NCBI RefSeq assembly: GCF_048771995.1 | Contig: NC_133041.1 | Coordinates: 4,663,324-4,727,323, forward strand | DNA: 64,000 bases | Reading direction: 5' to 3' | DNA from: Taeniopygia guttata | Taxonomy: Eukaryota | Shown: positions 6,840 through 52,269 of the stretch, in pieces | Layout of the letters: every line of letters begins with the position of its first letter | Position numbering within the stretch: position 1 is the first letter of the stretch | Made by a program: the position numbers and the translations under genes | Notes under the pieces: model-generated | What the model was told of the DNA's origin: nothing | Databases searched by the model: none | Seen by the model: the letters and a program-made list of their open reading frames with translations, nothing else

Positions 6840-6849
6840 GTGAGGGGCA

Positions 6850-8930
6850 GATTTAGGAATTTTTATCCAAAATTGGGTTCTTGAGGTCCATAATTACCTC
6901 AGTTCGGTCTTGGTTTGGTTTTTCTATCACTTAAAATGGCAGTTGTAGATCTTCTTGAGGTTCCTCAGACCATTTGTGGCATTTTACCAGATTTGGAGGT
7001 TTTGGGATGAAATTTTGTGTTCTTGAGGTCCATAATTATCTTGATTTGGTCTTGGTTTGGTTTTTCTACCCCTTAAAATGGCGGTTCTAGATCTTCTTGA
7101 GGTTCCTCAGACCGTGCTTAGAGATTTTGACCAAAATTTTGGGATTTTGACCCAGAATTGGGTTCTTCAGGTCCATAATTACCTTAATTCAGCCTTGGTT
7201 TTGTTTTTCTATTTCTTAAAATGGCGGTTCTAGATCTTCATGAGGTTCCTCAGACTGTGCTTAGAGATTTTGACCAAAATTTCGGGATTTTGACTCAAAA
7301 TTGGGTTCTTGAGGTCCATAATTACCTTAATTTGGCTTTACTTTGGTTTTTGTATCACTTAAAATGGCCGTTCTAGATCTTCATTAGGTTCCTCAAACCA
7401 TGGTTGGTGGTTTTTGAACATAATTGGAAGTTTTAGGTTGAAATTTTGGGGTTTTGGGGTCAAAAGTTGGGTTTGGAGGTCCATAATTATCTTAATTCGG
7501 TCTTGGTTTGGTTTATCTATCTCTTAAAATGGCGATTCTAGATCTTCTTGAGGTTCCTCAGACTGTGCTTAGAGATTTTGACCAAAATTTCAGGATTTTG
7601 ACTCAAAATTGGGCTCTTGAGGTCCATAATTACCTTAATTCAGTTTTAGTTTGGTTTTTTTATCACTTAAAATGGCGGTTCTAGATCTTCTTGAGGTTTC
7701 TCAGACAAAAATTGAGTTTTTTCACCGAAGTCTAGGAATTTTGACCCAAAATTGGGTTCTTGAGGCCCATAATTACCTTTATTTGGTCTTGGTTTGGTTT
7801 TTCTATCTCTTAAAATGGCGGGTCTAGATCTTCATAAAGTTCCTCAAATCATGTCTGGTGGCTTTGACCAGAGTTTGTTGATTTTGACCCAAAATTGGGT
7901 TCATCAGGTCCATAATTACTTAATTTGGTCTTGGTTTGGTTTTTGTATCACTTAAAATGAAGATTTTAGATCTTCTTGAGGTTCTTCACACCATGGTTGG
8001 TGGTTTTTACCAAAATTTTGGGATTTTGACCCAGAATTGGGTTCTTCAGGTCCATAATTACTTAATTTGGTCTTGGTTTCGTTTTTCTATCTCTTAAAAT
8101 CGCGGTTCCAGACCTTCATGAGGTTCCTCAGACCATGGTGTGGGATTTTGACCAAAATTTTGGGATTTTGACCCAGAATTGGGTTCTTGAGGTCCATAAT
8201 TACTTTGATTTGGTCTTGGTTTGGTTTTTTTATCTCTAAAAATGAAGATTCTAGATCTTCCTGAGGTTCCTCAGACAATGGTTGGGGATTTTGACCAAAA
8301 TTTCAGGATTTTGATCCAGAATTGGGTTCTTGAGGTCCATAATTATCCTAATTCAGCTTTAGTTACCTTTTTTAGCCCTTAAAATGGCGGTTCTAGATCT
8401 TCATTATGTTCCTCAGACCATTTGTGGTATTTTACCAAATTTGGAGGTCTTAGCTTGAAATTTTGGGGTCTTGAGGTCCATAATTACCTTAATTCAGTTT
8501 TAGTTTGTTTTTTTTTATCACTTAAAATGGCGGTTCTAGATCTTCCTGAGGTTCCTCAGACCGTGATTTGAGATTTTGACAAAAATTTAGGAATTTTTAT
8601 CTAAAATTGGGTTCTTGAGGTCCATAATTATCCTAATTCAGCTTTAGTTACCTTTTTTAGCCCTTAAAATGGCGGTTCTAGATCTTCCTTAGGTTCCTCA
8701 GACCATTTGTGGTATTTTACCAGATTTGGAGGTTTTGGGATGAAATTTTGGGTTCTTGAGGTCCATAATTACTTAATTTGGTCTTGGTTTGGTTTTTTTA
8801 TCTCTTAAAATGAAGATTCTAGATCTTCCTTAGGTTCCTCAGACCATGGTTTGGGATTTTGACCAAAATTTCGGGATTTTGACCCAGAATTGGGTTCTTC
8901 AGCTCCATAATTACCTTAATTCGGCTTTAC
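6850..8930 (+). repeat. About 15 tandem copies of a ~140-bp AT-richer satellite (core ...gttcttgaggtccataattaccttaattcagtcttggtttggtttttctatcacttaaaatggcggttctagatcttcttgaggttcctcagacc...gattttgaccaaaattt.gggattttgacccagaattgg) in an EIF3C intron
   Basis: ggtccataatta recurs about every 135-150 bp from 6886 to 8905. Copies are 85-95% identical. Confidence 0.9.
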
Positions 8931-9171
8931 TTCTGTTTTTTACCCCAAAAATTCCCATTTTTTTGCCCAAAATCACCATTTTTCACCCCAAAACTGCCAA
9001 TTTTTTACTCCAACCTGTCTCAGGTGCTTTTCTGACCTCCAAAATCCAAAAAAAATCCCATTTTTTTGCCCCAAAACCACTGATTTTTTGGGATTTTTTT
9101 TTATTTCCCGTCCCCTCACCTGCCCCAGTGTCCCTCACCTGTCCCAGGTGTGTCTCACCTGTCCCCCCCAG

Positions 9172-9331
9172 GTCCCCCCGAGTCGATGCGGGAGCACGTG
9201 GTGGCCGCCTCCAAGGCCATGAAAACGGGCGACTGGCGGCGCTGCCATCGCTTCGTGGTCAATGAGAAGATGAACGGAAAGGTCTGGGACCTGTTCCCCG
9301 AGGCCGACCAGGTGCGCGCCATGCTGGTCAG
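9172..9331 (+). CDS. EIF3C: EIF3C exon, translating (G)[53 protein letters not shown]
   Basis: Matches human [53 protein letters not shown]. The acceptor is cccccag|gt and the donor gtcag|gtgagc. Confidence 0.9.
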
Positions 9332-9339
9332 GTGAGCAC

Positions 9340-10600
9340 ACCAAAATTTGGGGGGTTTTGGGAAAATTTGGGCGAAATTTGGGCGATTTTTGGCCATTTT
9401 TTGGTGATTTTATAGTGATTTTTGGGGGGTTTTTAGGGGCATTAAAGGGTTAAAAATGAGGGTTTGAGGTGCTCAGGTGAGTCTCAGGTGAGCCTCAGGT
9501 GAGTCAGGTGAGTCCCACCTGGGCCAATTAAAAATTTTGGGGGATTTTGGGAAATTTTGGGCGAATTTTGGCAATTTTGAGCAATTTTACGGTGATTTTT
9601 TAGAGATTTTCGGGGGTTTTTGGGGAGGATTTTCGGCAGGAAATGAGGATTTAAAGTGATCAGGTGTGTCTCAGGTGAGTCTCACCTGGGCAGGTGTGGC
9701 CAGGTTAAAAAAAACTGTGAATTTTGGGGGATTTTGGGCAATTTTGGGTGAATATTGCCAATTTCGGATAATTTTTGGCATTTTTAAGTGATTTTTGGGG
9801 GTTTTGGGGTGATTTTGGCCGTTTTGGGGGGATTTGGGGAGGTTCAAAGTCTGGGACCTGTTCCCCGAGGCCGACCAGGTGCGCGCCATGCTGGTCAGGT
9901 GAGCGACCCCAAATTTTGGGGGGTTTTGGGAAAATTTGGGCGAAATTTCGGCGATTTTTGGCCATTTTTGGGCGATTTTATAGCGATTTTTAGGGGTTTT
10001 TTTGGGGCGTTAAGGGTTAAAAATGAGGATTTGAGGTGCTCAGGTGAGTCTCAGGTGAGCACACCTGGACACAGGTGAAAAAATTTAGGGGGAATTTTCA
10101 GGGATTTTGGGCAATTTTGGGCAAATTTTGGCCATTTTTGGGTGATTTTAGAGGGATTTTAGAGGGATTTTTGGGGGTTTTTGGGGAGATTTACGGTTAA
10201 AAATGAGGATTTGAGGTGCTCAGGTGAGTCTCAGGTGAGTCTCAGGTGAGCACACCTGGACACAGGTGAAAAATTTTTGGGGTAAATTTGGGCAAATTTT
10301 GGCAATTTTGGGTGAATTTTCGGCAATTTTGAGCGATTTTAGGGCGGTTTTATGGGGATTTTCGGGGTTTTTTGGGAGATTTAGGGTTAAAAATGAGGAT
10401 TTGAGGTGCTCAGGTGAGTCTCAGCTGAGTCTCACCTGGGCAGGTGTGGCCAGGTAAAGAAAAACGTGAATTTCGGGGAATTTTGGGCGAATTTTGGCAA
10501 TTTTGGGTGATTTTAGGGGGATTTTAAGAGAATTTGGGGTAAAAAATGTGGATTTGAGGTGCCCAGGTGCACCCAGGTGTGCCCAGGTAAGGAAATTTAG
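9340..10600 (+). repeat. Intronic array of ~250-bp units ending in gtgctcaggtgagtctcaggtgagc; one unit (9848-9898) contains a copy of the 3' end of the EIF3C exon at 9172-9331 with its donor
   Basis: gtctgggacctgttccccgaggccgaccaggtgcgcgccatgctggtcag|gtgagcg at 9848-9898 duplicates 9281-9338. Confidence 0.85.
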
Positions 10601-11330
10601 CCAATTTTGGAATATTTTGGGATATTTTGGGACATTTTGGGGCAGGAAATGAGAATTTGGGGGGTCAGGGGCGTGCCCAGGTGTGCCCAGGTGTGCCCAG
10701 CTGCCCCCAGGTGTGCCCAGCTGCCCCCAGGTGTGCCCAGGTGTGCCCCAGGTACCCTCAGGTGTGCCCAGGTGTATCCCAGGTGTGCCCAGGTGTATCT
10801 CAGGTGTATCTCAGGTGTGCCCAGGTGTGCCCAGGTGTGCCCAGGTGCCCCAGGTGTGCCCAGGTGTGCCCAGGTGTGCCAGGTGTGCCAAGGTGGCCCC
10901 AGGTGTATCTCAGGTGTGCCCAGGTGTGCCCAGGTGTGCCCAGGTGCCCCAGGTGTGCCCAGATGTGCCCAGGTGTGCCCAGGTGTGCCCAGGTGTATCT
11001 CAGGTGGTGCCCAGGTGTGCCCAGGTGTGCCCAGGTGTGCCCAGGTGTATCTCAGGTGTGCCCAGCTGTGCCCAGGTGTGCCCCAGGTGTGCCCAGGTGT
11101 GCCCAGGTGTGCCCAGGTGTATCCCAGGTACCCCCAGGTGTGCCCAGGTGTATCTCAGGTGCCCCCAGGTGCCCCCAGGTGCCCCCAGGTGCCCCCAGGT
11201 GCCCCCAGGTGTGCCCAGGTGTATCTCAGGTGTGCCCAGGTGTGCCCAGGTGTGCCCAGGTGCCCCCAGGTGTGCCCAGGTGTATCCCAGGTGTGCCCAG
11301 GTGTGCCAGCTGTGCCCTCTGTGCCCGCAG
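10600..11330 (+). repeat. Array of about 80 copies of (CCCAGGTGTG) with a CAGGTG E-box core, ending at the acceptor of the EIF3C exon at 11331
   Basis: The period is 9-10 bp. All three forward reading frames are open (ORFs 10607-11536, 10627-11454 and 10683-11489). Confidence 0.9.
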
Positions 11331-11396
11331 GAAGATCCAGGAGGAATCTCTCCGCACGTACCTGTTCACCTACAGCAGCGTCTACGACTCCATCAG
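11331..11396 (+). CDS. EIF3C: EIF3C exon, translating (R)[21 protein letters not shown](S)
   Basis: Identical to human [22 protein letters not shown]. The acceptor is cccgcag|g and the donor catcag|gtcc. Confidence 0.88.
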
Positions 11397-11399
11397 GTC

Positions 11400-12840
11400 C
11401 GTTTTTTGGGGGGAAAAATGGGGATTTTGGGTCAAAAAAAAGAAAAAAAAATAATTTTTGGGGTGAAAAATGGGGATTTTGGAGTTTAAAAAAAAATATT
11501 AATTTTGGGGTAAAAAAAAAGCTTATTTGGGGGTAAAAAATGGGAATTTTGGGGTATAAAAAGCGGGTTTGGGGGTAAAAAAAAGTGAATTTTGGGGTAA
11601 AAAATTTGAATTCGGACGGGAAAAATTGGTGAGTTTTGGGGTTAAAAATGTAAATTTTCAGGTAAAAAATGGAGGAGTTAAAAGGGAAAAATTGGTGAAT
11701 TTTAGGGTAAAAAAATAATTTTGGGGTATAAAAAGTGGGTTTGGGGGCAAATAAAACTGAATTTTCGGGTAAAAATGTGAATTCTGAACGGAAAAATTGG
11801 TGAATTTAGAAGGGAAAAATTGGTGATTTGGGGTAAAAAATGGATTTTGGGGTGAAAAATGGGAATTTTGGGGTAAAAAAACCTGGATTTTGGGGTAAAA
11901 AATGTGAATTTTGGGGTAAAAAAGGGTGATTTGGGGTAAAAAAAAAAGCGAATTTTGGGGTAAAAAATGTGAATTTTGGGGTAAAAAAGTGTATTTGGGT
12001 ATAAAAAAAAGTTAATTTTGGGTAAAAAATAGCGGCTTTACAAGGCAAAAATTGGTGAATTTTGGGGTTAAAAAAATGTGAATTTTGGGCTAAAAAATGT
12101 GAATTTTGGGGTAAAAAGGGGTGAATTTAGAAGGGAAAAATTAGTGAATTTTGGGGTAAAAAAATGTGAATTTTGGGGTAAAAAGGGGTGAATTTAGAAG
12201 GGGAAAATTAGTGAATTTTGGGGTAAGAAACAGCTATTTTAGAAGAAAAAAACTAGTGAATTTTGGGGTAAAAAATATAAATTTTGGGGTAAATAAGAGT
12301 GGATTTAAAAGGGGAAAGTTGGTGAATTTTGGGGTAAGAAATGTGAACTTTGGGGTAAAAACTAGCGATTTTAGAAGGGAAAAATTGGTGAATTTTGGGG
12401 TAAAAAATCATAAATTTTGGGGTAAAAAAATAATTTTAGGGTACAAAAAAAGTTGATTTTGGGGTAAAAATGAATTTTTCGGGTAAAAAATAGCAGATTT
12501 AAAAGGCAAAAATTGGTGAATTTTGGGGTAAAAAAATGTGAATTTTGGCATAAAAAGGGGTGAATTTATAAGGGAAAAATTGGTGAATTTTGGGGTAAAA
12601 AGGGGTGAATTTAGAAGGGAAAAATTTGTGGATTTTGGGTAAAAAATATTAATTTTGGGGTAAAAAATGTGAATTTTTGGGTAAAAAATAGGAATTTTGG
12701 GGTAAAAAAATAATGAATTTTGGGGTAAAAAGGGGTGAATTTAGAAGGGAAAAATTAGTGAATTTTGGGGTAAAAAAACCACAAATTTTGGGGTAAGAAA
12801 TACTTTGGGTGTAAGAGGGCCGGATTTTGGGTTGAAAAAG
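11400..12840 (+). repeat. A/G-rich minisatellite (ggggtaaaaaatgtgaattttggggtaaaaagggg..)
   Basis: A simple tandem repeat, seen directly. Confidence 0.85.
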
Positions 12841-12859
12841 GGGGATTTTGGGCCGGCAG

Positions 12860-12947
12860 CATGGAGACGCTGGCGGCCATGTTCGAGCTGGACCTGCCGA
12901 CGGTGCACGGCATCATCAGCAAGATGATCATCAACGAGGAGCTGATG
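12860..12947 (+). CDS. EIF3C: EIF3C exon, translating (S)[29 protein letters not shown]
   Basis: Matches human [30 protein letters not shown]. The acceptor is ggcag|c and the donor gatg|gtgagc. Confidence 0.88.
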
Positions 12948-12949
12948 GT

Positions 12950-15300
12950 GAGCGCCTTTTGGGGCAAATTCCGGCCGGTTTGGGTCAAAAGGGAAATTTG
13001 GGGGATTTGGGGTCATTTCCGGCTCGGTTTGGGTCACCCGCGGGCAAATTCGGGGCAGTTTTGGGGCAGTTTTGGTGTTTTGGGGTCAAATTTGGGAACA
13101 GGTTGGGTGATTTTGGGTCAGATTTGGGGCAGTTTTGGGGTCAATTTTGGGGTCAGATTGGGTGATTTTGGGGCAGTTTTGGGGTCAATTTTGGTGATTT
13201 TGGGTCAAATTTGGGTTCTAATTGTGTGATTTTGGGACAGTTTTGGGGCAGTTTTGGGGTCAATTTTGGTGATTTTGGGTCAAATTTGGGTTCTAATTGT
13301 GTGATTTTGGGACAGATTTGGGATCAGGTTGGGTGATTTTGGTTCAAATTTTGGGTCAGATTGTGTCAAATCTTGGGTTTAATTTGGGGGAGTTTTGGGT
13401 CATTTGGGCTCATTTTGGGTCATTTTGGGTCACTTGGGGTCAATTTGGGTGATTTGGGGTCAAATTTGGGGCCGTTTTGGGGTCAATTTTGGTGATTTTG
13501 GGTCAAATTTGGGGCAGTTTTGGGGTTAATTTTGATGATCTTGGGTCAAATTTGGGGTCAGGTTGGGTGATTTTGGGGCAGATTTGGGGCGGGTTTTGGG
13601 TCAAATTTGGGGTCAGATTGGGTGATTTTGGGTCAGTTTTGGGGAAGTTTTGGGGTAAATTTTGGTGATTTTGGGGCAGTTTTGGAATCAATTTTGGTGG
13701 TTTTGGGTCAAATTTGGGGCAGTTTTTGGTGTAAATTTTGGTGATTTTGGGTCAATTTTGGGAACAATTTGGGTGATTTTGGGTCAGATTTGGGGCAGTT
13801 TTTGCGTCAATTTTGGTGATTTTGGGTCAGATTTGGGATGAGGTTGGGTGATTTTGGGTCAAATTTTAGGGGTTTAGATTGGGTCAAATCTTGGGTTTAA
13901 TTTTGGGGAGTTTTGGGTTATTTGGGCTCAATTTGGGGAGTTTAGGGTCACTTGGGGTGAATTTGGGTGATTTGGGGTCACATTTGGGGCAGTTTTGGGG
14001 TCAATTTTGGTGATTTTGGGTCAGATTTGGGGCAGTTTTGGGGTCAATTTTGGTGATTTTGGGACAGATTTGGGGCAGTTTTTGGGTCAATTTTGGTGAT
14101 TTTGGGTCAGATTTGGGAACAGGTTGGGTTATTTTGGGGCAGATTTGGGGCAGTTTTTGGGTCAAATTTGGGGTCAGATTGGGTGATTTTGGGTCAGATT
14201 TGGGGCAGTTTTGAGGTCAATTTTGGTGATTTTGGGTCAAATTTGGGGTGGTGTTGGGAGATTTTGGGACAGATTTGGGGTCAATTTTGGGGTCAATTTT
14301 GGTGATTTTGGGTCAAATTTGGGGCAGTTTTGGGGTTAATTTTGATGATCTTGGGTCAAATTTGGGGTCTGGTTGGGTGATTTTGGGTCAGATTTAGGGC
14401 GGTTTTGGGTCAATTTTGGGGATTTTGGGTCAAATTTGGGGCAGTTTTGGGATCAATTTTGGTGATTTTGGGTCAAATTTGGGGTCTGGTTGGGTGATTT
14501 TGGGTCAAATTTGGGGTCAGGTTGGGTGATTTTGGGGCAGTTTTGGGGTCAATTTTAGGGTCAATTTTGGTGATTTTCGGTTAAATTTGGGGCAGTTTTT
14601 GGGTCAATTTTGGTGATTTTGGGTCAGATTTGGGGTCAGATTGGGTGATTTTGGGTCAGATTTGGGGTCAGATTGGGTCAAATCTTGGGTTTAATTTCGG
14701 GGAGTTTTGGGGCATTTGGGCTCATTTTGGGGAGTTTTGGGTTACTTGGGGTGAATTTGGGTGATTTGGGGTCAATTTAGGGCGGTTTTGGGGCAAATTT
14801 GGGGCAGTTTGGGTGATTTTGGGGCAGATTTGAGGCAGTTTTGGGGTCAGTTTATGTGATTTTGGGTCAAATTTGGGGTCTGGTTGGGTGATTTTGGGTC
14901 AGATTTGGGGCCATTTTGGGGTCAATTTTGGTGATTTTGGGTCAAATTTGGGGTCAGGTTGGGTGATTTTGGGTCAAATTTGGGAACAAGTTGGGTGATT
15001 TATGTCAAATTTGGGGTCAGATTGGGTGATTTTGAGTCAAATTTGGGGCAGTTTTTGGGTCAAATCTGGGGTCAGATTGGGTCAAATCTTGGGTTAAATT
15101 TTGGGGAGTTTTGGGTCACTTGGGGTCAATTTGGGTGATTTGGGGTCACATTTGGGGCAGTTTTGGGGTCAATTTCAGTGATTTTGGGTCAAATTTGGGT
15201 CACTTGAAATTTGGGCTCAATTTGGGTCATTTTGGGGTCGGTTTGGGTGATTTTGGGGCAGATTTGGGGCAGTTTTGGTGGGATTTCAGGTGGGGTTTTG
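12950..15300 (+). repeat. G/T-rich minisatellite (ttttgggtcagatttggggcagttttggggtcaattttggtga)
   Basis: A simple tandem repeat, seen directly. Confidence 0.85.
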
Positions 15301-33110: not shown

Positions 33111-34559
33111 AAAAATTCAAAAATATCCCCCCAAAATCCTGGATTTTTAGGCCAAAATTTACAAAATTCCCATTTAAAAAGCTCAAAATTGGGCTGAGGA
33201 CCCAAAACTTTCAGAAATCCCCAAAATTCTCCCAAATTTTCCACCCAAGTTGGAATTTTTGGGGAAAAATGCGGAAAAAAGACGGATTTGGGGTAAAAAC
33301 AAAAACTAAAAGTGAATTTTTTTGTTATATTGGGAAAAAGAAAATTTTTTGGGGAAAATGGGGATTTTGGGGGGAAAAAGTAAAATTTTGGGGACAAAAT
33401 GCAGAAGTTTTGGGGGGAGAAAAAGGCGGATTTTTGGGGGAAAAAAGTGGATTTTTTCTGGAAAAATGTGGATTTTAAAAGGATTTTTTATTTTTTAACG
33501 GAAAAGGGGACATTTTGGGAGAAAAATAAAATTTTTTAGATAATTCAAAGCGGGGAAAACGTGGATTTATGGGAGTAAAAAGGTGAATTTTTGGGTGAAA
33601 AATGTGAATTTTGGGGAATGAAATGCAGATTTTGGGCAAAAAAAGGTGAATTTTTGGGGAGGGAAGGGGGATTTGAGGGGAAAAAATGACAATTTGGGCG
33701 CAAAAATAAAGATTTTGGGGGAAGAAAATCAGATTTCGAGGGGTAAAAGTAGAATTTGGGTCAAAAAAAAGTGGATTTTGGGATTAAAATTGTGGATTTT
33801 GAGGTAAAAATGTGGATTTTGGGGTGAAAAATGTGGATTTTGTGGTTAAAAAAAAGCGATTTTGGTGGGAAAAAGCCGATTTTTCCCTCACGAAAGTGGA
33901 ATTTTTGGGATCAAAACCCTTTTTGGGGGATCCCGTTGGGATTTGTGGGATTTGGGTGAATTTTCGGGGAATTTTGGGTGAATTTTGGCCAATTTTGAGG
34001 TGATTTTTGGGTGAATTTACACCGATTTTTGGGGTGATTTTGGAGTGATTTTGGGGTGATTTTTGGGTGATTTTTGAGCCGATTTTGGGTGATTGTTGGG
34101 TGATTTTGGGGTGAATTTTGGCCGGTTTTGGGGTGATTTTTGGGGCGATTTTGGGATGACTTTTGGGTGAATTTTGGACGATTCTTGGGGTGATTTTGGG
34201 GTGATTTTTGGGTGATTTCTGATCCGATTTTTGGGTGATTTTTGGGTGATTTTTTTTGTGATTTCTGGGTGAATTTGGGGTGAATTTGGGCCGATTTCGG
34301 GTGAATTTGGGCCGATTTTGGGGTGATTTTTTGGTGAATTTTGGGTGATTTTTTGATGAATTTTGGGTGAATTTTGGCCGATTTTTGGGTGATTTTTGGG
34401 TGAATTCGCACCGATTTTTGGGTGATTTCTGAGAGGATTTTTGGGGTGATTTTTGGCTGAATTTGGGCCTATTTGGGGGTGATTTTGGGGTGATTTCTGA
34501 TCCGATTTTTGGGTGATTTTGGGGTGAATTTTGGGTGAATTTTGGGCGATTTTGGCGCC

Positions 34560-35281
34560 TTTAGGGAGGGGCTTGGGGGGGGGCTCAAAATGGCGGCGGC
34601 TCCTGAGGGGCGCGAAAATGGCGGGAAAACGGCGGGGTGGGTGTGGCTTATCGCGCGCGGGGGGGGCGGAGTCACCGGCAGGGCGTGGCCGCAATTAATA
34701 ATTATTAATTAACAACCAATTAATCGATCAGGGCGTGGCTTTATCGATTAGCGGGGGCGCGGCTTTCGCGCTGCGCGGCCAATCAGCGCCGCGCCCGCGC
34801 GGTTGCCATGACAACGCTCTGCCATCATGGCGCCGCGGCCGCGCCGGCTGCTGATTGGTTCTCCCTCCTCTTGGCGGGCGTGTCCCGACCAATCAGCGCT
34901 CCGCTTTTCCGTGAGGGGGATCCGCGCCATTTTGCGGCAGGGCGGGAAAACCGCGGTGGGCGTGGCTTCGCTTAGAAAAAAAAGGAGAAAGGGGCGTGGC
35001 TTTTGCTGCGCCCAATCAGCGCCCACCGCGGGCGCGCCGCGCCCAATCAGCGCCCGCCTTTTGGCCACGCCTACCTATATTGAAGCCACGCCCACCTCCC
35101 CCCTCACTCCGCGCCCCCCTTTCCCCTCAGCGCCCCCCGCCCCTCCCCCACCGCAGCCCCCTCCCCTCCCCCACCCCTCCCCCACCCCTCCCCCACCCCT
35201 CCCCCACCCCTCCCCCACCCCTCCTCCTCCTCCTCCTCCCGGCCGCGGCTCCGGTCGCGATTCTGTCGCGACAGTGGCGAG
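34560..35281 (+). promoter_or_regulatory. MAZ: MAZ CpG-island promoter with at least four CCAAT boxes (ccaatcag/ctgattgg at about 34790, 34851, 34881 and 35012-35045), a TATA-like tatattgaag at about 35080, and tandem CCCCTCCCCCA (G3AG3 complement, an ME1a1/MAZ-type motif) repeats at 35100-35250
   Basis: CpG density is high and ccaatcagcg is repeated. The C-rich array lies immediately 5' of the putative MAZ ATG at 35282. Confidence 0.6.
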
Positions 35282-35317
35282 ATGGACCCCGCGAACTGGA
35301 GCAGCTTCATCTTCCAG
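35282..35317 (+). CDS. MAZ: MAZ putative first coding exon, translating MDPANWSSFIFQ
   Basis: The ATG follows a CpG island with four CCAAT boxes and a TATA-like tatattgaa. FQ joins in frame to AAPPPP of the next exon, mirroring human ...SPFQAAPAPPP. The donor is ttccag|gtgggg. The exon is short and diverged, hence the moderate confidence. Confidence 0.45.
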
Positions 35318-35319
35318 GT

Positions 35320-38257
35320 GGGGGAGGGGCGGGGGGGGAGGGGGGGATGGGGGGAGGGGGAGGGGCTGGAGGGTGGGGGAGGGGGAGGGAGGCTCGGACT
35401 GGGAGCACTGGGAGGGACTGGGAGGGACTGGGAGGGACTGGGGGGTGGGGGCGGGGGAGGGGGGGTGAACTGGGAGCGCTGGGGGGTGGTACTGGTGTCA
35501 CTGGGAGCTGTTACTGGTGATACTGGGAGCACGGGGAGCTGTTACTGGTGGTACTGGGAACATTGGGGGGCTTCGTACTGGTCTTACTGGTGATACTGGG
35601 AGCACTGGGAGCATTGGGAGCTGTTACTGGTGTTACTGGGAGCTGTTACTGGTGGTACTGGGAGCACTGGGAGCGATGGGGACACCGGTGTGGCTCTGTA
35701 CTGGGAGCACTGGGAGCTGTTACTGGGAGCACTGGTAATACTGGGAGCTGTTACTGGTGTTACTGGTGGCACTGGGAGCACTGGGAGCTGTACTGGGAGC
35801 ACTGGGAGCTGTTAATGGGAGCACTGGGAGCAGTTACTGGTGTTACTGGTGGCACTGGGAGTGATGGGGACACCGGCGTGGCTTTATACTGGGAGCACTG
35901 GGAGCTGTTACTGGTGATACTGGTGATACTGGGAGCACTGGGAGATGTTAATGGGAGCACTGGGAGCACTGGGGGATGGTACTGGTGTTACTGGGAGCAC
36001 TGGGAGTGATGGGGACACCGGTGCGGCTTTATACTGGGAGCACTGGGAGCTGTTACTGGTGTTACTGGTGTCACTGGGAGCTGTACTGGGAGCACTGGGG
36101 GGTGGTACTGGTGGCACTGGGAGCGATGGGGACACCGGTGTAGCTCTGTACTGGGAGCACTGGGAGCTGTTACTGGGAGTACTGGGAGCTGTTACTGGTG
36201 TTACTGGTGATACTGGTGGCACTGGGAGCTGTTACTGGTGATACTGGGAGCACTGGGAGCAATGGGGACACCGGCATGGCTTTATACTGGGAGCACTGGG
36301 AACTGTTACTGGGAGCACTGGGGGATGGTACTGGTGATACTGGGAGCACTGGTGTCATTGGGAGCGATGGGGACACCGGTGTCGCTCTGTACTGGGAGCA
36401 CTGGGAGCTGTTACTGGTGATACTGGGAGCACTGGGAGCGATGGGGGTGATGGGGACACCGGCGTGGCTTTATACTGGGAGCACTGGGAGCTGTTACTGG
36501 TGTTACTGGTGATACTGGGAGCGATGGGGACACCAGTGTGGCTCTGTACTGGGAGCACTGGGAGCCGTTACTGGTGAAACTGGGAGCACTGGGGGGCTTC
36601 GTACTGGTCTTACTGGTGATACTGGGAGCACTGGGGGCACTGGGAGCACTGGGAGCACTGGGAGCTGTTACTGGTGTTACTGGGAGCACTGGGAGCGATG
36701 GGGACACCGGTGTGGCTTTATACTGGGAGCACTGGGAGCTGTTACTGGTGTTACTGGGAGCTGTTACTGGGAGCACTGGGAGCTGTTACTGGTGTCATTG
36801 GGAGCTGTTACTGGGAGCACTGGGAGCTGTACTGGGAGCACTGGGAGCTCTTACTGGGAGCACTGGGAGCTGTTACTGGTGTTACTGGGAGCACTGGGAG
36901 TGATGGGGACACCGATGTCACCCTGTACTGGGAGCACTGGGAGCTGTTACTGGTGATACTGGTGGTACTGGGAGCTGTACTGGGAGCACTGGGGGGTGGT
37001 ACTGGGAGCACTGGGAGCACTGGGGAAACTGGCGTGGCTTTATACTGGGAGCACTGGGAGCTCTTACTGGTGACACTGGGAGCTGTACTGGGAGCACTGG
37101 GAGCACTGGGAGCGATGGGGACATCGATGTCGCTCTGTACTGGGAGCACTGGGAGCCGTTACTGGTGTTACTGGGAGCTGTTACTGGTGTTACTGGTGTT
37201 ACTGGGAGCACTGGTGTCACTGGGAGCTGTTACTGGTGTTACTGGTGGCACTGGGGACACCGGCTTGGCTCCCGTTACTGGTTTATACTGGTCCATACTG
37301 GTTTTACTGGTCCGTACGGCTCCTTACTGGTCTAAACTGGTCCCTACTGGTTTATACTGGTCCGTAGTGACCCACACGAGTAGTAAACCAGTCCAAACCA
37401 GTCTATACTGGTTTATACTGGTCTGTAGTGACCCACACCAGTCTAAACCAGTCCACACCAGTTCATACTGGTTTATACTGGTCCATACTGGTTTTTAGTG
37501 ACTCACACCAGTAGTAAACCAGTCCACACCAGTTTATACTGGTTTATACTGTTTTATACTGGTCCATACTGGTTTTTAGTGACTCACACCAGTACTAAAC
37601 CAGTCCAAACCAGTCCACACTGGTTTATACTGGTTTATACTGGTCCGTAGTGACCCACACCAGTACTAAACCAGTCCAAACCAGTCTATACTGGTTTATA
37701 CTGGTCCGTAATGACCCACACCAGTCCAAACCAGTCTAGACCCGTTTATACTGGTCCATACTGGTCCATATTGACCCACACCAGTCCAAACCAGTTCATA
37801 CTGGTTTATACTGGTCCACACCAGTTCATAGTGGTTTATACTGGTCCAAACCACTTTATATTGGTTTATACTGGTCCAGACTAGTTTATACTGGTTTATA
37901 CTGGTCCATACTGGTCCGTAGTGACCCACACCAGTCTAAACCAGTCCAAACCAGTTTATACTGGTTTATACTGGTCCATACTGGTCTGTAGTGACTCACA
38001 CCAGTCCAGACCAGTTCATACTGGTTTATACTGGTCCAAACCAGTTCATACTGGTTTATACTGCTCCAAACCAGTTCATACTGGTTTATACTGGTTCATA
38101 CTGGTTTATACTGGTCCAAACTGGTTCATACTGGTTTTTACTGGTCCATAATGACCCAAACCAGTCCAAACCAGTCCACACCAGTTCATACTGGTTTATA
38201 CTGGTTCATACTGGTTTATACTGGTCCAAACTGGTTCATACTGGTTTTTACCCCCAG
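35320..38257 (+). repeat. MAZ intron 1 satellites: tactgggagcactgggagctgttactggtg family (35320-37290), then tactggtttatactggtccaaaccagt family (37290-38257)
   Basis: Seen directly; several frames are open on both strands. Confidence 0.88.
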
Positions 38258-38895
38258 GCCGCCCCTCCCCCTCCCCCCTCCCCCTCCCCCCTCCCCGTCG
38301 ACCTCCTGCCCCTCCCCCCTCCCCCTCCCACCCCCGACCCTCCCCCCACCCCCACCCCCGCCCCTCCCCCTCCCACCATCGACCCCTCCCCCCTCAAACC
38401 CCCACTCCCGGAAGCCACGCCCACCGCCGTGACGTCACCGATGACATCATCAATGACGTCACCGCGCAAGAAGGGCGCGCCGCACGTCTGCGGCCTGTGC
38501 GCCAAGGAGTTCAAGAACGGCTACAACCTGCGGCGCCACCAGGCCACGCACGGTGACACCAACACCGCGACGGCGACAACACCCAAACGCGGCCACCACC
38601 CCCGCCCCTCCCCCACCCCGCCCATCCCCCACCCAAACCCGATGGAAGGAGGGGAAAACAAGGAATCGGCGCCGAAACGGAAGAGCCACGCGTGTGACAC
38701 GTGTGGGAAGGCGTTCCGCGACGTGTACCACCTGAAGCGGCACCGGCTGTCGCACACGGACGAGCGGCCGTTCCAGTGCCCCGTGTGCCAGCAGCGCTTC
38801 AAGCGCAAGGACAGGATGGCGGCGCACGTGCGCTCCCACCAGGGACACGTGCACAAGCCCTACGCGTGTGGCCACTGCGGGAAGAGCTTCTCCAG
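38258..38895 (+). CDS. MAZ: MAZ large exon with a Pro-rich region and zinc fingers 1-3, translating AAPPPPPSPSPLPVDLLPL...PHVCGLCAKEFKNGYNLRRHQATH...HACDTCGKAFRDVYHLKRHRLSHTDERPFQCPVCQQRFKRKDRMAAHVRSHQGHVHKPYACGHCGKSFS(R)
   Basis: Near-identity to human MAZ fingers PYICALCAKEFKNGYNLRRHEAIH and HACEMCGKAFRDVYHLNRHKLSHSDEKPYQCPVCQQRFKRKDRMSYHVRSHDGAVHKPYNCSHCGKSFSR. The acceptor is cccccag|gcc and the donor tccag|gtgggg. Confidence 0.88.
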
Positions 38896-40691: not shown

Positions 40692-40755
40692 GCCGGACCA
40701 CCTCAACAGCCACGTCCGGCAGGTTCACTCCACCGAGCGGCCGTTCAAGTGCCAG
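40692..40755 (+). CDS. MAZ: MAZ exon, translating (R)PDHLNSHVRQVHSTERPFKCQ
   Basis: Identical to human RPDHLNSHVRQVHSTERPFKCE. The acceptor is ccccag|g and the donor gccag|gtgaga. Confidence 0.88.
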
Positions 40756-40759
40756 GTGA

Positions 40760-43140
40760 GACACCCCTGACCCCTGACCTCTGACCCCTGACCTCTGACC
40801 TCTGACCCCTGACCACTGACCACTGACCCCTGACCACTGACTGCTGACCTCCTGACCCTCCAAATGACCCCTGAGTGACCCCGAACCACCCCTGAGTGAC
40901 CTTTTGACCTCCCAAACCGCCCCTAGGTGACTTTTTGACCCTCTGACCGACCCCTGACTGACCCCTTGACCCCTGACTGACCCCTTGACCACCAGAATGA
41001 CCCCTTGTCCACCTGAGTGTCCCCTTGACCACCCGAGTGACCCCTTGACTGACCCCTTGGCCCCTTGAGTGACCTTTTGACCTCCCAAACCACCCCTAAA
41101 TGACCTTTTAACCCCCTCAATGACCCCTGACTGACCCCTTGACCACCTGAGTGACCCCTCGACTGACCCCTTGAGTGACCTCTTGACCCTCCCAATGACC
41201 CCTGAGTGACCTTTTGACTGCCCAAACCACCCCTAAATGACCTTTTAACCCCCTAAATTACTTTTTAACCCCCTGACTGACCCCTTGATGACCCAAGTGA
41301 CCCCTTGTCCATCTGAGTGACCCCTCGACTGACCTCTTGACCCCTTGACTCACCTCTTGACCCTCCAAATGACCCCTTGAGTGACCTCTTGACCCTCCAA
41401 ATGACCCCTAAGTGACCCCGAACCACCCCTGAATGACCTTTTGACCTCCCAAACTGCCCCTAAATAACCTTTTAACCCCCTAAATGACTTTTTAACCCCC
41501 CGCCTGACCCCTGACTGACCCCGTGACCCTTGTGTGACCCTTGACTGACCCCTGACTGACCCCTGACTGACCCCTTGACCCCTTGACTGACCTCTTGACC
41601 CTCCCAATGACCCCTGAGTGACCTTTTGACTGCCCAAACCACCTTTAAATGACCTTTTAACCCCCCAAATGACGTTTTAACCCCCTCAATGACTTTTTAA
41701 CCCCCCAAGTGACCCCTGACTGACCCCTTGACCACCTTACTGAACCCTTGACCCCTTGAGTGACCTTTTGACCTCCCAAACCGCCCTTAAATGACCTTTT
41801 AACCCCCTCAATGACTTTTTAACCCACCAAATGACCCCTGAAGGACTTGTTAACCCCCTAAATGACCCCTGCCTGACCCCGTGACCCCTGACTGACCCTT
41901 GACTGACCCCTGACTGACCCCTGACTGACTCCTTGACCACCCGAGTGACCCCTTGACTGACCTCTTGACCCTCCAAATGATCCCTAAGTGACCCCGAACG
42001 ACCCCTGAATGACCTTTTGACCCCCCAAACTATCCCTAAACGACCTTTTAACCCCCTGACTGACCCCGTGACCCCTGAATGACCCCTTGACCACCTGAGT
42101 GACCCCAAACCACCCCTGAATGACCTCTTGACCCTCCAAATGACCCCTGAATGACCTTTTGACCACCCAAACCGGCCTTAAATGACTTTTTAACCTCCTA
42201 AGTGACTTTTTAACTCCCTTAATGACTTTTTAACCCCCCAAATGACCCCTGACTGACCCCTTGTCCACCTGACTGACCCCTAACCCCTTGAGTGACCTTT
42301 TGACCACCCAAACCATTTTTAAATGGCCATTTAACCCCCAAAATGACTTTTTAACCCACCAAATGACCCCTGAAGGACTTGTTAACCCCCCGCCTGACCC
42401 CTGCCTGACCCTGTGACCCCTGACTGACCCCTGTGTGACCCCTGCCTGACCCCTGACTGGCCCCTTGACCACCTGAGTGACCCCTTGACTGACCTCTTGA
42501 CTCTACAAATGACCCCTGAATGACCCCGAACCACCCCCTAATGACCTTTTGACCACCCAAACTGTCCCTAAACGACCTTTTAACCCCCTGACTGACCCCT
42601 GACTGACCCCTTGACCACCCGAGTAACCCCTTGACCACCCCTTGACCCTCTGAGTGACCCCTCGACTGACCCCTTGACCCCTTGAGTGACCTTTTGACTG
42701 CCCAAACCACCTTTAAATGACCTTTTAACCCTTTATGTGACTTTTTAAACCTCCTAAATGACCTTTTAATGCCCCAAATGACTTTCTAACCCCCTGACTG
42801 ACCCCTGCCTGACCCCGTGACCCCTGTGTGACCCCTGTGACCCCCTCAGCGGTGCGAGGCGGCGTTCGCCACGCGGGACCGGCTGCGGGCGCATTCGGCG
42901 CGGCACCAGGAGAAATCACTGACTGACCCCTGACTGACCCCTGACTGACCCCTGCCTGACCCCCTGACCCCTGTGTGACCCCTGTGACCCCTGTCAGCGG
43001 TGCGAGGCGGCGTTCGCCACGCGGGACCGGCTGCGGGCGCATTCGGCGCGGCACCAGGAGAAATCACTGACTGACCCCTGACTGACCCCTGACTGACCCC
43101 TGCCTGACCCCCTGACCCCTGTGTGACCCCTGTGACCCCT
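40760..43140 (+). repeat. tgacccctgactgacccc / tgacc.tttaacccc arrays with two truncated copies of the MAZ exon-4 head (42848-42915 and 43006-43072)
   Basis: ccctcag|CGGTGCGAGGCGGCGTTCGCCACGCGGGACCGGCTGCGGGCGCATTCGGCGCGGCACCAGGAGAAATC is present three times. Only the third copy continues into the rest of the exon. Confidence 0.88.
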
Positions 43141-43145
43141 GTCAG

Positions 43146-43296
43146 CGGTGCGAGGCGGCGTTCGCCACGCGGGACCGGCTGCGGGCGCATTCGGCGCGGC
43201 ACCAGGAGAAATCCCCGTGTCCCGTCTGCGGGAAACTGCTCAGCCCCGCCCACCTCGGGGAGCACCTGCGCGGCCACGGACACGCCCCCAGGACAG
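43146..43296 (+). CDS. MAZ: MAZ exon, translating RCEAAFATRDRLRAHSARHQEKSPCPVCGKLLSPAHLGEHLRGHGHAPRT(G)
   Basis: Matches human KCEAAFATKDRLRAHTVRHEEKVPCHVCGKMLSSAYISDHMKVHSQGP. The acceptor is gtcag|cgg and the donor acag|gtcagc. Two truncated copies of the 5' part lie just upstream at 42848-42915 and 43006-43072. Confidence 0.85.
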
Positions 43297-44430: not shown

Positions 44431-44519
44431 GTTCCGGCTGCCCCTCCCCCTCCCCCGGCCCCGCCCCCGCCCCTCCCCCACCCCTGGACGGGGCCCCCGG
44501 GGGCAGCCAGGGCTGGTGA
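44431..44519 (+). CDS. MAZ: MAZ terminal coding exon, translating (G)SGCPSPSPGPAPAPPPPLDGAPGGSQGW followed by a stop
   Basis: The acceptor is ccccccgcag|gt. It ends ...SQGW followed by a stop, like human MAZ ...PLPSQPW followed by a stop. The TGA at 44517-19 overlaps a possible alternative donor tgg|tgagg. The human HVCELCNKG finger and poly-Ala tail are not seen here. Confidence 0.6.
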
Positions 44520-44639: not shown

Positions 44640-44745
44640 CAAAAAGGCTCCGCCCACTTTTTAAAGAGGCGCGGGATTGGCTGGGGAGGAGTGGGCGGGG
44701 CCGAGCGGCGATGACGTCATGACCACGCCCAGGTAAAAATAAAAT
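44640..44745 (+). promoter_or_regulatory. Orphan promoter-like module: GC box, CCAAT box (gattggctg), a perfect palindromic CRE gatgacgtcatg, then a splice-donor-like caggtaaaaa
   Basis: The sequence ggctccgcccacttttta...gcgcgggattggctgggg...ggcgatgacgtcatgaccacgcccag|gtaaaa lies between the MAZ 3' end and the CLN3 3' end, and no downstream exon can be identified. Confidence 0.3.
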
Positions 44746-51706: not shown

Positions 51707-52269
51707 CTGTGGGGGAGGGGCGGGGCGGGGCTTAAAAACACAAGCCCCGCCCACTACTCAAATATGCAAATCGCGCCCCTCCCCCACCCCAAATCTGCCA
51801 TATTTTCCCCTCCCCCACCCCAAACCCGCCATTTTAGCCCCTCCCCCACCCAATTTCCCCCATTTTAGCCCCTCCCAAACTCATTAGGCCCCTCCCCCAC
51901 CCCAAATCCACCATCTTGGACCCCTCCCCCACCCCAAATCCGCCATATTTTCCCCTCCCCCACCCCAAATCTGCCATTTTAGCCCCTCCCCACCCTAAAT
52001 CTGCCATATTGGACCCCTCCCCCCTCCCCAAATCCGCCATTTTATCCCCTCCCTCACCCATATCCGCCATTTTGGATTCTTCCCCCACCCCAAATTTGCC
52101 ATTTTAGCCCCTCCCCCATAAAAAATCCACCATCTTTCCCCTCCCCCACCCCAATTTAGCCCCTTCCAAACTCTTTAGGCCCCTCCCCCGGCCCTTTAGG
52201 CCCCTCCCCCACCCCCTCAAGCCCCTCCCCCACCCCAGGCCCCTCCCCCTCAGGCCCCGCCCCTCTCAC

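What the first reader, a model, noticed from the sequence alone, without database searches (positions are those of the whole stretch)
35095..35260. The MAZ promoter carries a tandem array of the MAZ-type motif (CCCCTCCCCCA repeated about 10 times) between the CCAAT/TATA region and the ATG
MAZ binds G3AG3/C3TC3 (ME1a1) elements. Here cccctcccccacccctcccccaccc... is reiterated immediately 5' of the putative start (35282). This could be an autoregulatory binding platform, or a G4/i-motif-forming tract.
Basis: partly seen in the sequence, partly recalled or inferred. Interest (0 to 1): 0.5.

Follow-up and report, generated by a model that had tools for sequence, protein, structure and literature searches.

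The report
C-rich repeat upstream of finch MAZ
Just upstream of the first coding exon of the zebra finch MAZ gene lies a real, very C-rich 11-base tandem repeat that could bind MAZ-type zinc-finger proteins or fold into four-stranded DNA, but it is a species-specific reshaping of an older C-rich tract and fits a pattern already described for genes on bird dot chromosomes, so it is fairly ordinary.

Summary
The repeat is real. TRF finds an 11-bp array at 35134-35236 (9.2 copies, 87% matches). Only six copies of CCCCTCCCCCA are exact, five of them contiguous (35163-35217), not about ten.

The gene is zebra finch MAZ. MDPANWSSFIFQ (35282-35317) is the ancestral first coding exon, conserved from sharks to birds and matching the upstream (SAF-3-type) exon found in a rodent locus.

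The C-rich tract is conserved in position and composition in crane and five passerines, with 5-7 CCCTCCC cores each. Its repeat period differs by lineage: 11-mer, 6-mer or 9-mer. Alligator and quail lack it.

The G3AG3 core is barely above what the tract's composition predicts. G-quadruplex potential on the template strand is extreme (G4Hunter -3.3).

A G-rich tract follows the exon-1 splice donor. This strand arrangement matches a published genome-wide rule for zebra finch dot chromosomes.

Best reading: a slippage-remodelled cluster of sites for G-run-binding zinc fingers (Sp/KLF, MAZ) in a CpG-island promoter or 5' leader. MAZ feedback is plausible by analogy with human but untested. The transcription start site is unknown. 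It is a new member of a known kind, of low to moderate interest.

The parts
34560..35094 (+). Conserved CpG-rich promoter block upstream of the C-tract. It holds AAAATGGCGGCGGC (34587-34600, YY1-like), GTTGCCATGACAAC (34802-34815, X-box-like) and CCAATCAGCGC at 34779, 34889, 35012 and 35043. It also holds the inverted GCGCCATTTTGCGGC (34924-34938) and the GAAGCCACGCCCACC box (35082-35096). A TATATT at 35076-35081 is zebra-finch-only.
   Evidence: Sequence; motif positions; 80% mean column identity across four oscines, with these motifs invariant. The factor names are my own reading of the motifs and were not tested.
35095..35241 (+). C-rich polypyrimidine tract (about 66% C, 80% pyrimidine over anchor-to-ATG) between the last GC/CACCC box and the TCGCGA elements. 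G-rich on the template strand.
   Evidence: composition, 7 CCCTCCC, 18 C-runs of 4 or more. The homologous tract is present in Cinclus, Catharus, Zonotrichia, Myiozetetes and Grus.
35134..35236 (+). 11-bp tandem array, consensus CCCCCACCCCT (= CCCCTCCCCCA in another register), 9.2 copies at 87% matches. It ends in a (CCT)6 run.
   Evidence: TRF; the repeat finder family D1 with 11-bp spacing; mean G4Hunter -2.85.
35163..35217 (+). Five perfect head-to-tail copies of CCCCTCCCCCA. On the template strand this reads TGGGGGAGGGG, alternating a G5AG4 MAZ-type core with a G4TG5 GT/CACCC-type core.
   Evidence: Exact matches; G4Hunter -3.27; G4-aware folding places consecutive quadruplexes along the G strand.
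35255..35271 (+). Two TCGCGA palindromes (35255-35260 and 35266-35271) just 5' of the ATG. A third is degenerate in zebra finch. They form part of an 11-bp TCGGTCGCGAT repeat in other oscines.
   Evidence: Sequence; alignment; TRF on L001, L002 and L005.
35282..35317 (+). MAZ first coding exon, MDPANWSSFIFQ, phase 0, with GT donor at 35318-35319.
   Evidence: orthologous N-termini; the same exon is found upstream in Cinclus, Zonotrichia, Grus, alligator and Peromyscus loci.
35320..35389 (+). G-rich tract at the start of intron 1 (G5AG4, G8AG7, G6AG5AG4 and similar on the coding strand). It is imperfectly complementary to the upstream C-tract.
   Evidence: TRF; G4Hunter +3.09; inverted repeat 35127-35208 / 35317-35398, 82 nt at 72%; RNA fold z -4.75; conserved in six Neoaves.
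38258..38895 (+). MAZ exon 2: Pro-rich N-terminal region, C-rich on the sense strand, then zinc fingers 1-4 (finger 4 continues into exon 3). It has the highest CCCTCCC density in the window (12 per 150 bp, at 38235).
   Evidence: tblastn; translation; motif density.
40692..40755 (+). MAZ exon 3 (PDHLNSHVRQVHSTERPFKCQ).
43146..43296 (+). MAZ exon 4, using the third copy of a triplicated acceptor unit.
44431..44518 (+). MAZ last coding exon, ending ...GGSQGW plus stop. An AATAAA lies near 44623.
   Evidence: the C-terminus is identical to P0001.

Best explanation
The array is the zebra-finch version of a conserved C-rich tract (G-rich on the template strand). The tract sits between the CCAAT/GC-box part of the ancestral (SAF-3-type) MAZ promoter and the first coding exon.

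Shown:
- The tract is present at the same place, with the same composition and 5-7 CCCTCCC cores, in crane and five passerines.
- Its internal repeat structure differs by lineage.
- In zebra finch one conserved unit (CACCCCTCCCCCA) now stands as five perfect 11-bp copies.

Inferred:
- The perfect copies arose by replication slippage or unequal exchange, the same process that fills this chromosome with minisatellites.
- The tract works as a homotypic cluster of duplex binding sites for zinc-finger factors that read G-runs: Sp/KLF on the G4TG5 cores, and MAZ and relatives on the G5AG4 cores.
- It keeps a TATA-less CpG-island promoter or 5' leader open.
- It gives MAZ a route to feed back on its own gene, as reported for the human MAZ promoter.
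- The exact 11-bp periodicity and copy number are probably not selected for themselves.
- G-quadruplex or i-motif folding is sequence-possible and may modulate the same region.
For: - Gene and exon identity.
- Positional conservation of the promoter and tract: four oscines, 80% column identity; suboscine and crane.
- Motif counts of 5-7 CCCTCCC per species despite sequence turnover.
- CCCCTCCCC is above composition in zebra finch (0 of 1000 shuffles reach the observed count) and Grus (2 of 1000).
- The exon-1 flanks rank in the top 0.5-3.5% of 150-bp windows for G3AG3 density in Neoaves loci. In Peromyscus the locus maximum lies just downstream of the homologous exon.
- Lineage-specific repeat periods.
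- Literature: G3AG3 is the canonical MAZ core, many promoters carry multiple MAZ motifs, MAZ binds duplex better than quadruplex, and arrays of MAZ sites pause Pol II (PMC7896315).
- Literature: Sp1 and MAZ repress the human MAZ promoter through elements at -599 to +1 (PMC6340948 citing Song et al.).
- The recognition helices of MAZ fingers 1, 2, 4 and 5 are conserved between finch and mammal at the specificity positions (sequences).
Against: - The short core CCCTCCC is not significantly above what the tract's own dinucleotide composition gives.
- Alligator and quail have zero cores upstream of the homologous exon, so the cluster is not an invariant MAZ feature.
- The same 15-mer is a building block of an unrelated satellite at 51776-52222.
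- Template-strand G4 motifs in 5'UTR/CDS and coding-strand G4 motifs in introns are a general property of zebra finch dot-chromosome genes, so nothing singles out MAZ.
- The transcription start site is unknown, so the array may lie in the promoter or in the 5'UTR.
- Passerine MAZ finger 3 differs from mammal at helix positions +5 and +6 (RMAA or RMAS against RMSY), so its specificity may have shifted.
- No binding data exist.
Confidence: 0.5

Rival explanations
1. Neutral by-product. The array is one more slippage-generated mini- or microsatellite in a GC-rich, recombination-prone dot chromosome. C-richness on the sense strand reflects regional mutational or compositional bias, and neither the motif nor the repeat has a specific function.
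For: - The window is saturated with tandem repeats: 122 TRF rows in 5 kb.
- Intron 1 is 2.9 kb of minisatellites, against about 220 bp in Grus.
- The repeat period changes between species: 11-mer, 6-mer, 9-mer.
- The CCCTCCC count is explained by composition.
- Exon 2 coding sequence carries even more of the motif.
- The same 15-mer occurs in another satellite.
- The published strand rule and minisatellite 'stuttering' on dot chromosomes fit this reading.
Against: - The tract's position, length class (160-238 bp from anchor to ATG) and composition persist from crane to passerines, while flanking non-coding DNA is replaced by unrelated satellites.
- Its 5' third and one internal unit are invariant in oscines.
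- It and the intronic G-tract are the two longest extreme G4Hunter tracts in 64 kb.
- A rodent has a cluster at the homologous place.
Confidence: 0.3
2. Non-B DNA switch of the c-MYC NHE III1 / CT-element kind. Under negative supercoiling the template strand folds into tandem parallel G-quadruplexes and the sense strand into i-motifs. Structure-specific proteins (hnRNP K or PCBP on the C strand; CNBP, nucleolin or MAZ on the G strand) set the transcription rate.
For: - G4Hunter is -3.27 over the perfect copies, far above usual thresholds.
- A canonical quadruplex-forming pattern spans 35114-35221.
- G4-aware folding predicts consecutive quadruplexes with 1-nt loops.
- The unit CCCTCCCCCA is nearly the c-MYC CT unit CCCTCCCCA (my own knowledge).
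- MAZ binds or unfolds promoter quadruplexes in HRAS, MYB and CCND1 (abstracts).
- Zebra finch promoter and 5'UTR G4 motifs are mostly unmethylated, which the authors take as a sign of folding.
Against: - This is prediction only, and 44% of the window exceeds |G4Hunter| 1.5.
- MAZ binds duplex more strongly than quadruplex (PMC7896315).
- Nothing shows folding in chromatin.
- This rival is not exclusive of the best explanation.
Confidence: 0.2
3. RNA-level element. The start site lies upstream of the array (about 60-100 bp 3' of the proximal CCAAT boxes), so the array is a C-rich 5'UTR. It would bind poly(C)-binding proteins, and in the pre-mRNA it would pair with the G-rich start of intron 1. 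That pairing loops out the 36-nt exon and its splice donor and so affects splicing or translation.
For: - The proximal CCAAT boxes at 35012 and 35043 would place a typical NF-Y-type start near 35080-35140 (inference).
- RNA 35130-35395 folds at -188 kcal/mol, z -4.75, with the C-tract paired to the intronic G-tract.
- The same long-range pairing (48-71 pairs, z -2.7 to -5.5) appears in all six Neoaves and not in alligator or Peromyscus.
- Template-strand bias of 5'UTR G4 motifs implies C-rich leaders are common on dot chromosomes.
Against: - The pairing is an automatic consequence of a C-run tract lying near a G-run tract, and covariation cannot be assessed in low-complexity sequence.
- The switch in GC skew at exon 1 and the TCGCGA elements would equally fit a start site just 5' of the ATG, which leaves the array untranscribed.
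- No transcript data are available here.
Confidence: 0.1

Closest known systems
Human MAZ (SAF-1/SAF-3) promoter with Sp1/MAZ autorepression elements
   Same: It is the same gene. The same upstream first exon is found here in the rodent Peromyscus as MDPSNWGSFIFQ, 572 bp 5' of the canonical MFPVFP start. I equate this exon with the human SAF-3 exon by inference, since the SAF-3 peptide was not retrieved. The promoter is GC-rich and TATA-less with a CCAAT box and clustered CCCTCCC motifs around that exon. Sp1 and MAZ are reported to repress the human promoter through shared elements (PMC6340948).
   Different: In the rodent the motifs are dispersed, not tandem, and the intron after the exon is also C-rich rather than G-rich. 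Birds appear to lack the canonical MFPVFP exon, since tblastn found no match. No functional data exist for any bird.
c-MYC NHE III1 / CT element (tandem CCCTCCCCA repeats)
   Same: Both are promoter-proximal tandem C-rich repeats with 1-nt interruptions. The unit is nearly identical. Both have strong parallel-G4 and i-motif potential, and both are targets of Sp1, MAZ-type factors and single-strand binders (my own knowledge; G4 prediction).
   Different: Here the unit is 11 bp with five perfect copies. The G-rich strand is the template strand and the distance to the start site is unknown. No nuclease hypersensitivity or folding data exist.
MAZ4 / G5AG5 Pol II pause elements (complement C2 gene and synthetic arrays)
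   Same: Both are arrays of 4 or more G5AG5-like cores that can slow Pol II, with or without MAZ bound (PMC7896315). The intronic tract at 35320-35389 carries such cores on the coding strand, directly after the exon-1 donor.
   Different: The upstream array has the G-rich strand as template, the opposite orientation to the classical pause element. Its position is at the 5' end of the gene, not near a poly(A) site.
Dot-chromosome G4-rich promoters, 5'UTRs and intronic minisatellites of zebra finch
   Same: The preprint reports template-strand G4 motifs in 5'UTR and CDS, coding-strand G4 motifs in introns, and minisatellite-filled introns (bioRxiv 10.1101/2025.10.17.683159). This is exactly the arrangement seen at MAZ.
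   Different: That is a genome-wide statistical description. This locus adds positional conservation of the tract across Neoaves and the coincidence that the motif matches the gene's own product.

Membership tests
Homotypic MAZ-site cluster (G3AG3 / ME1a1 type) | Several G3AG3 (CCCTCCC) cores within a short stretch | tested here: met
   There are 7 CCCTCCC and 7 CCCCTCCCC in 35095-35241. This puts it in the top 0.5% of 150-bp windows in the 64-kb window.
Homotypic MAZ-site cluster (G3AG3 / ME1a1 type) | Core motif enriched beyond local base composition | tested here: inconclusive
   CCCTCCC is 7 against 3.9 +/- 1.8 in dinucleotide shuffles of the tract (85 of 1000 reach 7). CCCCTCCCC is 7 against 1.8 (0 of 1000). 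Other species range from 2 to 124 of 1000 for the long core.
Homotypic MAZ-site cluster (G3AG3 / ME1a1 type) | Occupancy by MAZ protein (EMSA, footprint, ChIP) | not testable with these tools
   No binding data for zebra finch are available. The PDB holds no MAZ-DNA complex.
MAZ negative autoregulation as in the human MAZ promoter | MAZ/Sp1-type elements at the homologous promoter position | tested here: inconclusive
   The cluster flanks the homologous exon in Neoaves and Peromyscus but is absent in alligator and quail. The human elements are reported at -599 to +1 of the SAF-1 start. The human sequence itself was not available for alignment.
MAZ negative autoregulation as in the human MAZ promoter | Promoter activity falls when MAZ is over-expressed | not testable with these tools
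   This is an experimental test.
Promoter G-quadruplex / i-motif element (c-MYC NHE III1 type) | At least four G-runs of 3 or more with short loops on one strand | tested here: met
   A quadruplex-forming pattern spans 35114-35221. G4Hunter is -3.27 over 35163-35217. G4-aware MFE folding gives consecutive quadruplexes.
Promoter G-quadruplex / i-motif element (c-MYC NHE III1 type) | Demonstrated folding (CD, DMS, polymerase stop, BG4) and nuclease hypersensitivity | not testable with these tools
   Only indirect genome-wide methylation evidence exists, from the preprint read.
Promoter G-quadruplex / i-motif element (c-MYC NHE III1 type) | [quoted passage not shown] | tested here: inconclusive
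   The start site is unknown. CCAAT spacing suggests the array is transcribed. The GC-skew switch and the TCGCGA elements suggest a start just 5' of the ATG.
Dot-chromosome minisatellite ('stuttering') repeat | Head-to-tail copies with lineage-specific period and copy number | tested here: met
   Zebra finch has an 11-mer at 9.2 copies and Catharus an 11-mer at 7.2 copies (81% matches). Cinclus and Zonotrichia have a 6-mer, and Grus has 9-mers.
Dot-chromosome minisatellite ('stuttering') repeat | No positional or compositional conservation between species | tested here: not met
   The tract is anchored between the same GCCACGCCCAC box and the same TCGCGA/ATG in all oscines. It has 63-66% C in the four oscines and Grus, where Grus keeps the GC box and the ATG but not the TCGCGA repeat.

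The most novel reading that the evidence does not exclude
In Neoaves the ancestral first coding exon of MAZ is bracketed by two ~80-nt tracts that are mirror images in strand composition, with C-runs upstream and G-runs just after the splice donor. This bracket could be a MAZ-sensing device. Quadruplexes on opposite strands on either side of the exon, or a pre-mRNA stem that loops out the 36-nt exon and its donor, would couple MAZ protein level to promoter-proximal pausing or to first-exon splicing of its own transcript. That would be feedback at a step other than initiation.
Probability: 0.07. Interest if true: 0.6.

Novelty: new member of a known kind. Interest (0 to 1): 0.25.

Why it matters
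If MAZ really binds this array, the zebra finch would offer a natural allelic series: a perfect, probably copy-number-variable repeat of the factor's own site in its own promoter. That could be used to study dosage feedback of a broadly acting G-run-binding factor.

More practically, the locus shows three things:
- Current zebra finch MAZ gene models miss the conserved first exon and the Pro-rich N-terminus.
- The upstream (SAF-3-type) promoter, not the mammalian canonical one, is the ancestral MAZ promoter.
- The published dot-chromosome rule (template-strand G4 motifs before and in exons, coding-strand G4 motifs in introns) can be seen at single-gene resolution and is conserved across Neoaves at this gene.

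None of this overturns existing knowledge.

Tried and rejected
- Exact-protein look-ups failed for zebra finch P0001, Grus X2, alligator X2 and wallaby X3. I recovered the loci through the longest isoforms found with the listing of cluster members. Intraspecific length polymorphism therefore could not be tested.
I rejected the idea that the true start lies in intron 1.
- I considered that the CCAAT block might be the promoter of a divergent upstream gene. This was rejected because the upstream neighbours (EIF3C, a proline-dehydrogenase gene) are on the same strand in Grus, Cinclus and Catharus and EIF3C exons lie on the + strand in the window.
- Rfam found no known RNA family in 33500-38500.
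- The PDB search gave only generic C2H2 proteins and no MAZ-DNA complex to read specificity from.
- The quail contig (L004) is error-laden. Its lack of a C-tract is reported with that caveat.
- Covariation analysis of the C-tract/G-tract pairing was not attempted, because low-complexity sequence cannot give meaningful covariation.

Full report
**What is in the sequence**

Positions 35095-35241 are a C-rich polypyrimidine tract. Tandem Repeats Finder reports an 11-bp array at 35134-35236 with consensus CCCCCACCCCT, 9.2 copies and 87% matches.

One copy is at 35140 and five are perfect contiguous copies at 35163-35217. These are followed by a (CCT)6 run and two TCGCGA palindromes just before the ATG at 35282.

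A two-unit pattern with up to two mismatches matches six times in the window, against 0.01 expected from dinucleotide shuffles. The repeat is therefore real. 'About 10 copies' holds only if degenerate units are counted.

The 11-mer is not unique to this place. Ten further exact copies sit in a ~31-bp satellite at 51776-52222.

**Which gene, and is this its first exon**

tblastn with human MAZ locates zinc-finger exons at 38.3-43.3 kb on the + strand. I built this model: exon 1 CDS 35282-35317, exon 2 38258-38895, exon 3 40692-40755, exon 4 43146-43296 and exon 5 44431-44518. All junctions are GT-AG and in frame, giving 325 aa.

A database search returns NCBI 'myc-associated zinc finger protein [Taeniopygia guttata]' at 100% identity. 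That 252-aa model starts at an internal Met of exon 2.

The 12-residue peptide MDPANWSSFIFQ is identical in Grus americana isoform X2. It is conserved in alligator (MDPGNWSSFIFQ), turtle (MDPSNWSSFIFQ), frogs (MDANWSSFIFQ) and a shark (MDGTWSNFIFQ). In a rodent locus the same exon (MDPSNWGSFIFQ) lies 572 bp upstream of the canonical MFPVFP start. That position matches the upstream SAF-3 start site described for human MAZ (PMC6340948).

Synteny (EIF3C, a proline dehydrogenase gene, MAZ, then INO80E/SLX1/BOLA2) confirms orthology.

**The promoter around it**

I aligned the 840 bp ending in intron 1 with the orthologous regions of Cinclus, Catharus and Zonotrichia. Mean column identity is 80%. 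Invariant blocks include:
- AAAATGGCGGCGGC
- a GGCGGGAAAA element
- an AT-rich palindrome
- GTTGCCATGACAAC
- three to four CCAATCAGCGC boxes
- GCCACGCCCAC boxes
- the TCGCGA repeats before the ATG

The zebra finch TATATT (35076-35081) is not conserved, so this is a TATA-less CpG-island promoter.

The transcription start site cannot be determined here. CCAAT spacing would put it near 35080-35140, which would make the array 5'UTR. The GC-skew switch at exon 1 and the TCGCGA elements would equally fit a start just 5' of the ATG, which would make the array core promoter. Both are inferences.

**Conservation of the tract**

From the last GCCACGCCCA box to the ATG the tract measures 160-238 bp, with 63-66% C and about 80% pyrimidine. 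It contains 5-7 CCCTCCC cores in zebra finch, Cinclus, Catharus, Zonotrichia and Grus. The suboscine Myiozetetes has a longer version, about 390 bp.

The 5' third and one internal CCACCCCTCCCCCA unit are invariant in oscines. The middle is variable.

The repeat period differs by lineage:

| Species | Period | Detail |
|---|---|---|
| Zebra finch | 11-mer | 9.2 copies, 87% matches |
| Catharus | 11-mer | 7.2 copies, 81% matches |
| Cinclus | 6-mer | CTCCCC |
| Zonotrichia | 6-mer | CCCCCT |
| Grus | 9-mers | CCCTCCCCC and CCCCCACCC |

Alligator has a GC-box-type (CCGCCC) leader with no CCCTCCC. The error-laden quail contig has none. Peromyscus has dispersed CCCTCCC motifs, and its locus-wide maximum lies just after the homologous exon.

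The tract is therefore old, at least as old as Neoaves, with a mammalian counterpart. The perfect 11-mer run is recent and zebra-finch-specific.

**Is it a MAZ motif array?**

The canonical MAZ core is G3AG3 (PMC7896315). On the template strand each unit reads TGGGGGAGGGG. The array thus alternates a G5AG4 core with a G4TG5 GT/CACCC-type core, which Sp/KLF factors also read (my own knowledge).

Against dinucleotide shuffles of the tract itself, CCCTCCC is not significantly enriched: 7 observed against 3.9 +/- 1.8, with 85 of 1000 shuffles reaching 7. The longer CCCCTCCCC is enriched in zebra finch (0 of 1000) and Grus (2 of 1000), and marginally in the others. Much of the 'MAZ motif' signal is therefore composition.

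Relative to their loci, the exon-1 flanks are in the top 0.5-3.5% of windows for core density in Neoaves. In the zebra finch window the highest density is in the Pro-rich coding part of exon 2.

MAZ recognition helices of fingers 1, 2, 4 and 5 are conserved between finch and mammal at the specificity positions. Finger 3 differs at positions +5 and +6 in passerines. No MAZ-DNA structure is available.

**Non-B DNA potential**

G4Hunter gives -3.27 over the five perfect copies and -2.85 over the array. A canonical quadruplex pattern spans 35114-35221. G4-aware folding lays consecutive quadruplexes along the G strand.

The first 70 nt of intron 1 (35320-35389) are the mirror image, with G5AG4, G8AG7 and G6AG5AG4 on the coding strand and G4Hunter +3.09.

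All seven tracts of at least 40 bp with |G4Hunter| of 2.5 or more in the 64-kb window lie in MAZ: the promoter tract, intron 1 start, exon 2 and exon 5. The background is high, however. 44% of the window exceeds 1.5.

The C- and G-tracts form an 82-nt, 72%-complementary inverted repeat around exon 1. As RNA they pair at -188 kcal/mol, z -4.75. The same long-range pairing appears in all six Neoaves and not in alligator or Peromyscus. This follows from composition and is not evidence of a selected structure.

**Context that lowers the surprise**

A preprint on the zebra finch T2T genome makes several relevant points (bioRxiv 10.1101/2025.10.17.683159):
- In 5'UTRs and CDS they lie preferentially on the template strand, and in introns on the coding strand.
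- Dot-chromosome introns are filled with minisatellites.

The MAZ locus shows exactly this. Its intron 1 is 2.9 kb of 9- and 10-bp repeat families, against about 220 bp in Grus.

Clusters of MAZ motifs at promoters, pausing of Pol II by arrays of MAZ sites, and MAZ binding to promoter quadruplexes are all described. Repression of the human MAZ promoter by Sp1 and MAZ is also reported.

**Verdict**

The most likely nature of the element is a conserved C-run tract of the ancestral MAZ promoter or leader. It offers many sites for G-run-reading zinc fingers, including MAZ, and in zebra finch it has been homogenised by slippage into a perfect 11-bp repeat.

Autoregulation is plausible by analogy with human but untested. 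A neutral-repeat reading remains a serious rival. G4/i-motif and RNA-level roles cannot be excluded.

It is a new member of a known kind. Interest is low to moderate.

Noticed in passing
window 42847-43217: A 148-bp unit is present three times in tandem, with acceptors at about 42847, 42995 and 43146. It contains the exon-4 splice acceptor and the first 72 nt of the exon (CQRCEAAFATRDRLRAHSARHQEK). Only the third copy continues into the rest of the exon. The first two could act as decoy or alternative acceptors.
   Followed up: partly
window 35282-35317 and 38258-38480: The NCBI zebra finch MAZ models (252 aa and an older 255 aa, 95% identical to each other with indels) start at an internal Met of exon 2. 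They omit the conserved first exon and the Pro-rich N-terminus. A 325-aa model fits the orthologs better.
   Followed up: partly
window 35390-38257: Intron 1 is about 2.9 kb made almost entirely of minisatellites (ACTGGGAGC/TGTTACTGG 9-mers, then ATACTGGTCC 10-mers). The same intron is about 220 bp in Grus americana (L006 10038-10259).
   Followed up: partly
window 35127-35208 and 35317-35398: An imperfect inverted repeat (82 nt, 72% complementary) of the upstream C-tract and the intronic G-tract brackets the 36-nt exon 1. The arrangement is conserved in six Neoaves and absent from alligator and Peromyscus.
   Followed up: yes
window 51776-52222: A ~31-bp satellite with unit CCCCTCCCCCACCCCAAATCYGCCATTTTAG (about 15 copies) combines the same C-rich 15-mer with a GCCATTTT (YY1-like) element. 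What it belongs to was not examined.
   Followed up: no
window 33951-34553: A 54-copy 11-bp satellite (TTTGGGTGATT) ends directly at the 5' edge of the conserved MAZ promoter block.
   Followed up: no
window 34587-34600, 34693-34728, 34802-34815, 34924-34938: Several promoter elements are conserved across oscines: AAAATGGCGGCGGC and an inverted GCGCCATTTTGCGGC (YY1-like), an AT-rich palindrome (ATTAATAATTATTAATTAA...) and GTTGCCATGACAAC (RFX X-box-like) next to CCAAT boxes. The factor assignments come from memory and were not tested.
   Followed up: partly
window 35140-35231, 35313-35389, 35429-35474, 38250-38380, 38592-38636, 44438-44489: All seven tracts of at least 40 bp with |G4Hunter| of 2.5 or more in the 64-kb window lie inside the MAZ gene. 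They are C-rich on the sense strand in the leader and exons and G-rich in intron 1.
   Followed up: partly
L002 8194-8232; L003 10793-10826; L004 6137-6165: Exon 1 carries an extra C in the Catharus assembly and a short deletion in Myiozetetes. Both cause frameshifts and are probably assembly errors in GC-rich sequence. This may explain why annotations skip the exon. In quail, and judging from chicken protein P0029 (MEQLHLP...), the annotated start appears to read the same nucleotides in another frame.
   Followed up: no
window 44640-44740: Directly after the MAZ poly(A) signal (AATAAA near 44623) lies another promoter-like CpG segment. It has GATTGG, GGGCGGGG and TGACGTCA elements and a CAG|GTAAAA donor, presumably the first exon of the next gene.
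   Followed up: no
window 6332-13226: EIF3C coding exons lie on the + strand (for example [51 protein letters not shown]). This agrees with the EIF3C - proline dehydrogenase - MAZ order seen in Grus.
   Followed up: partly
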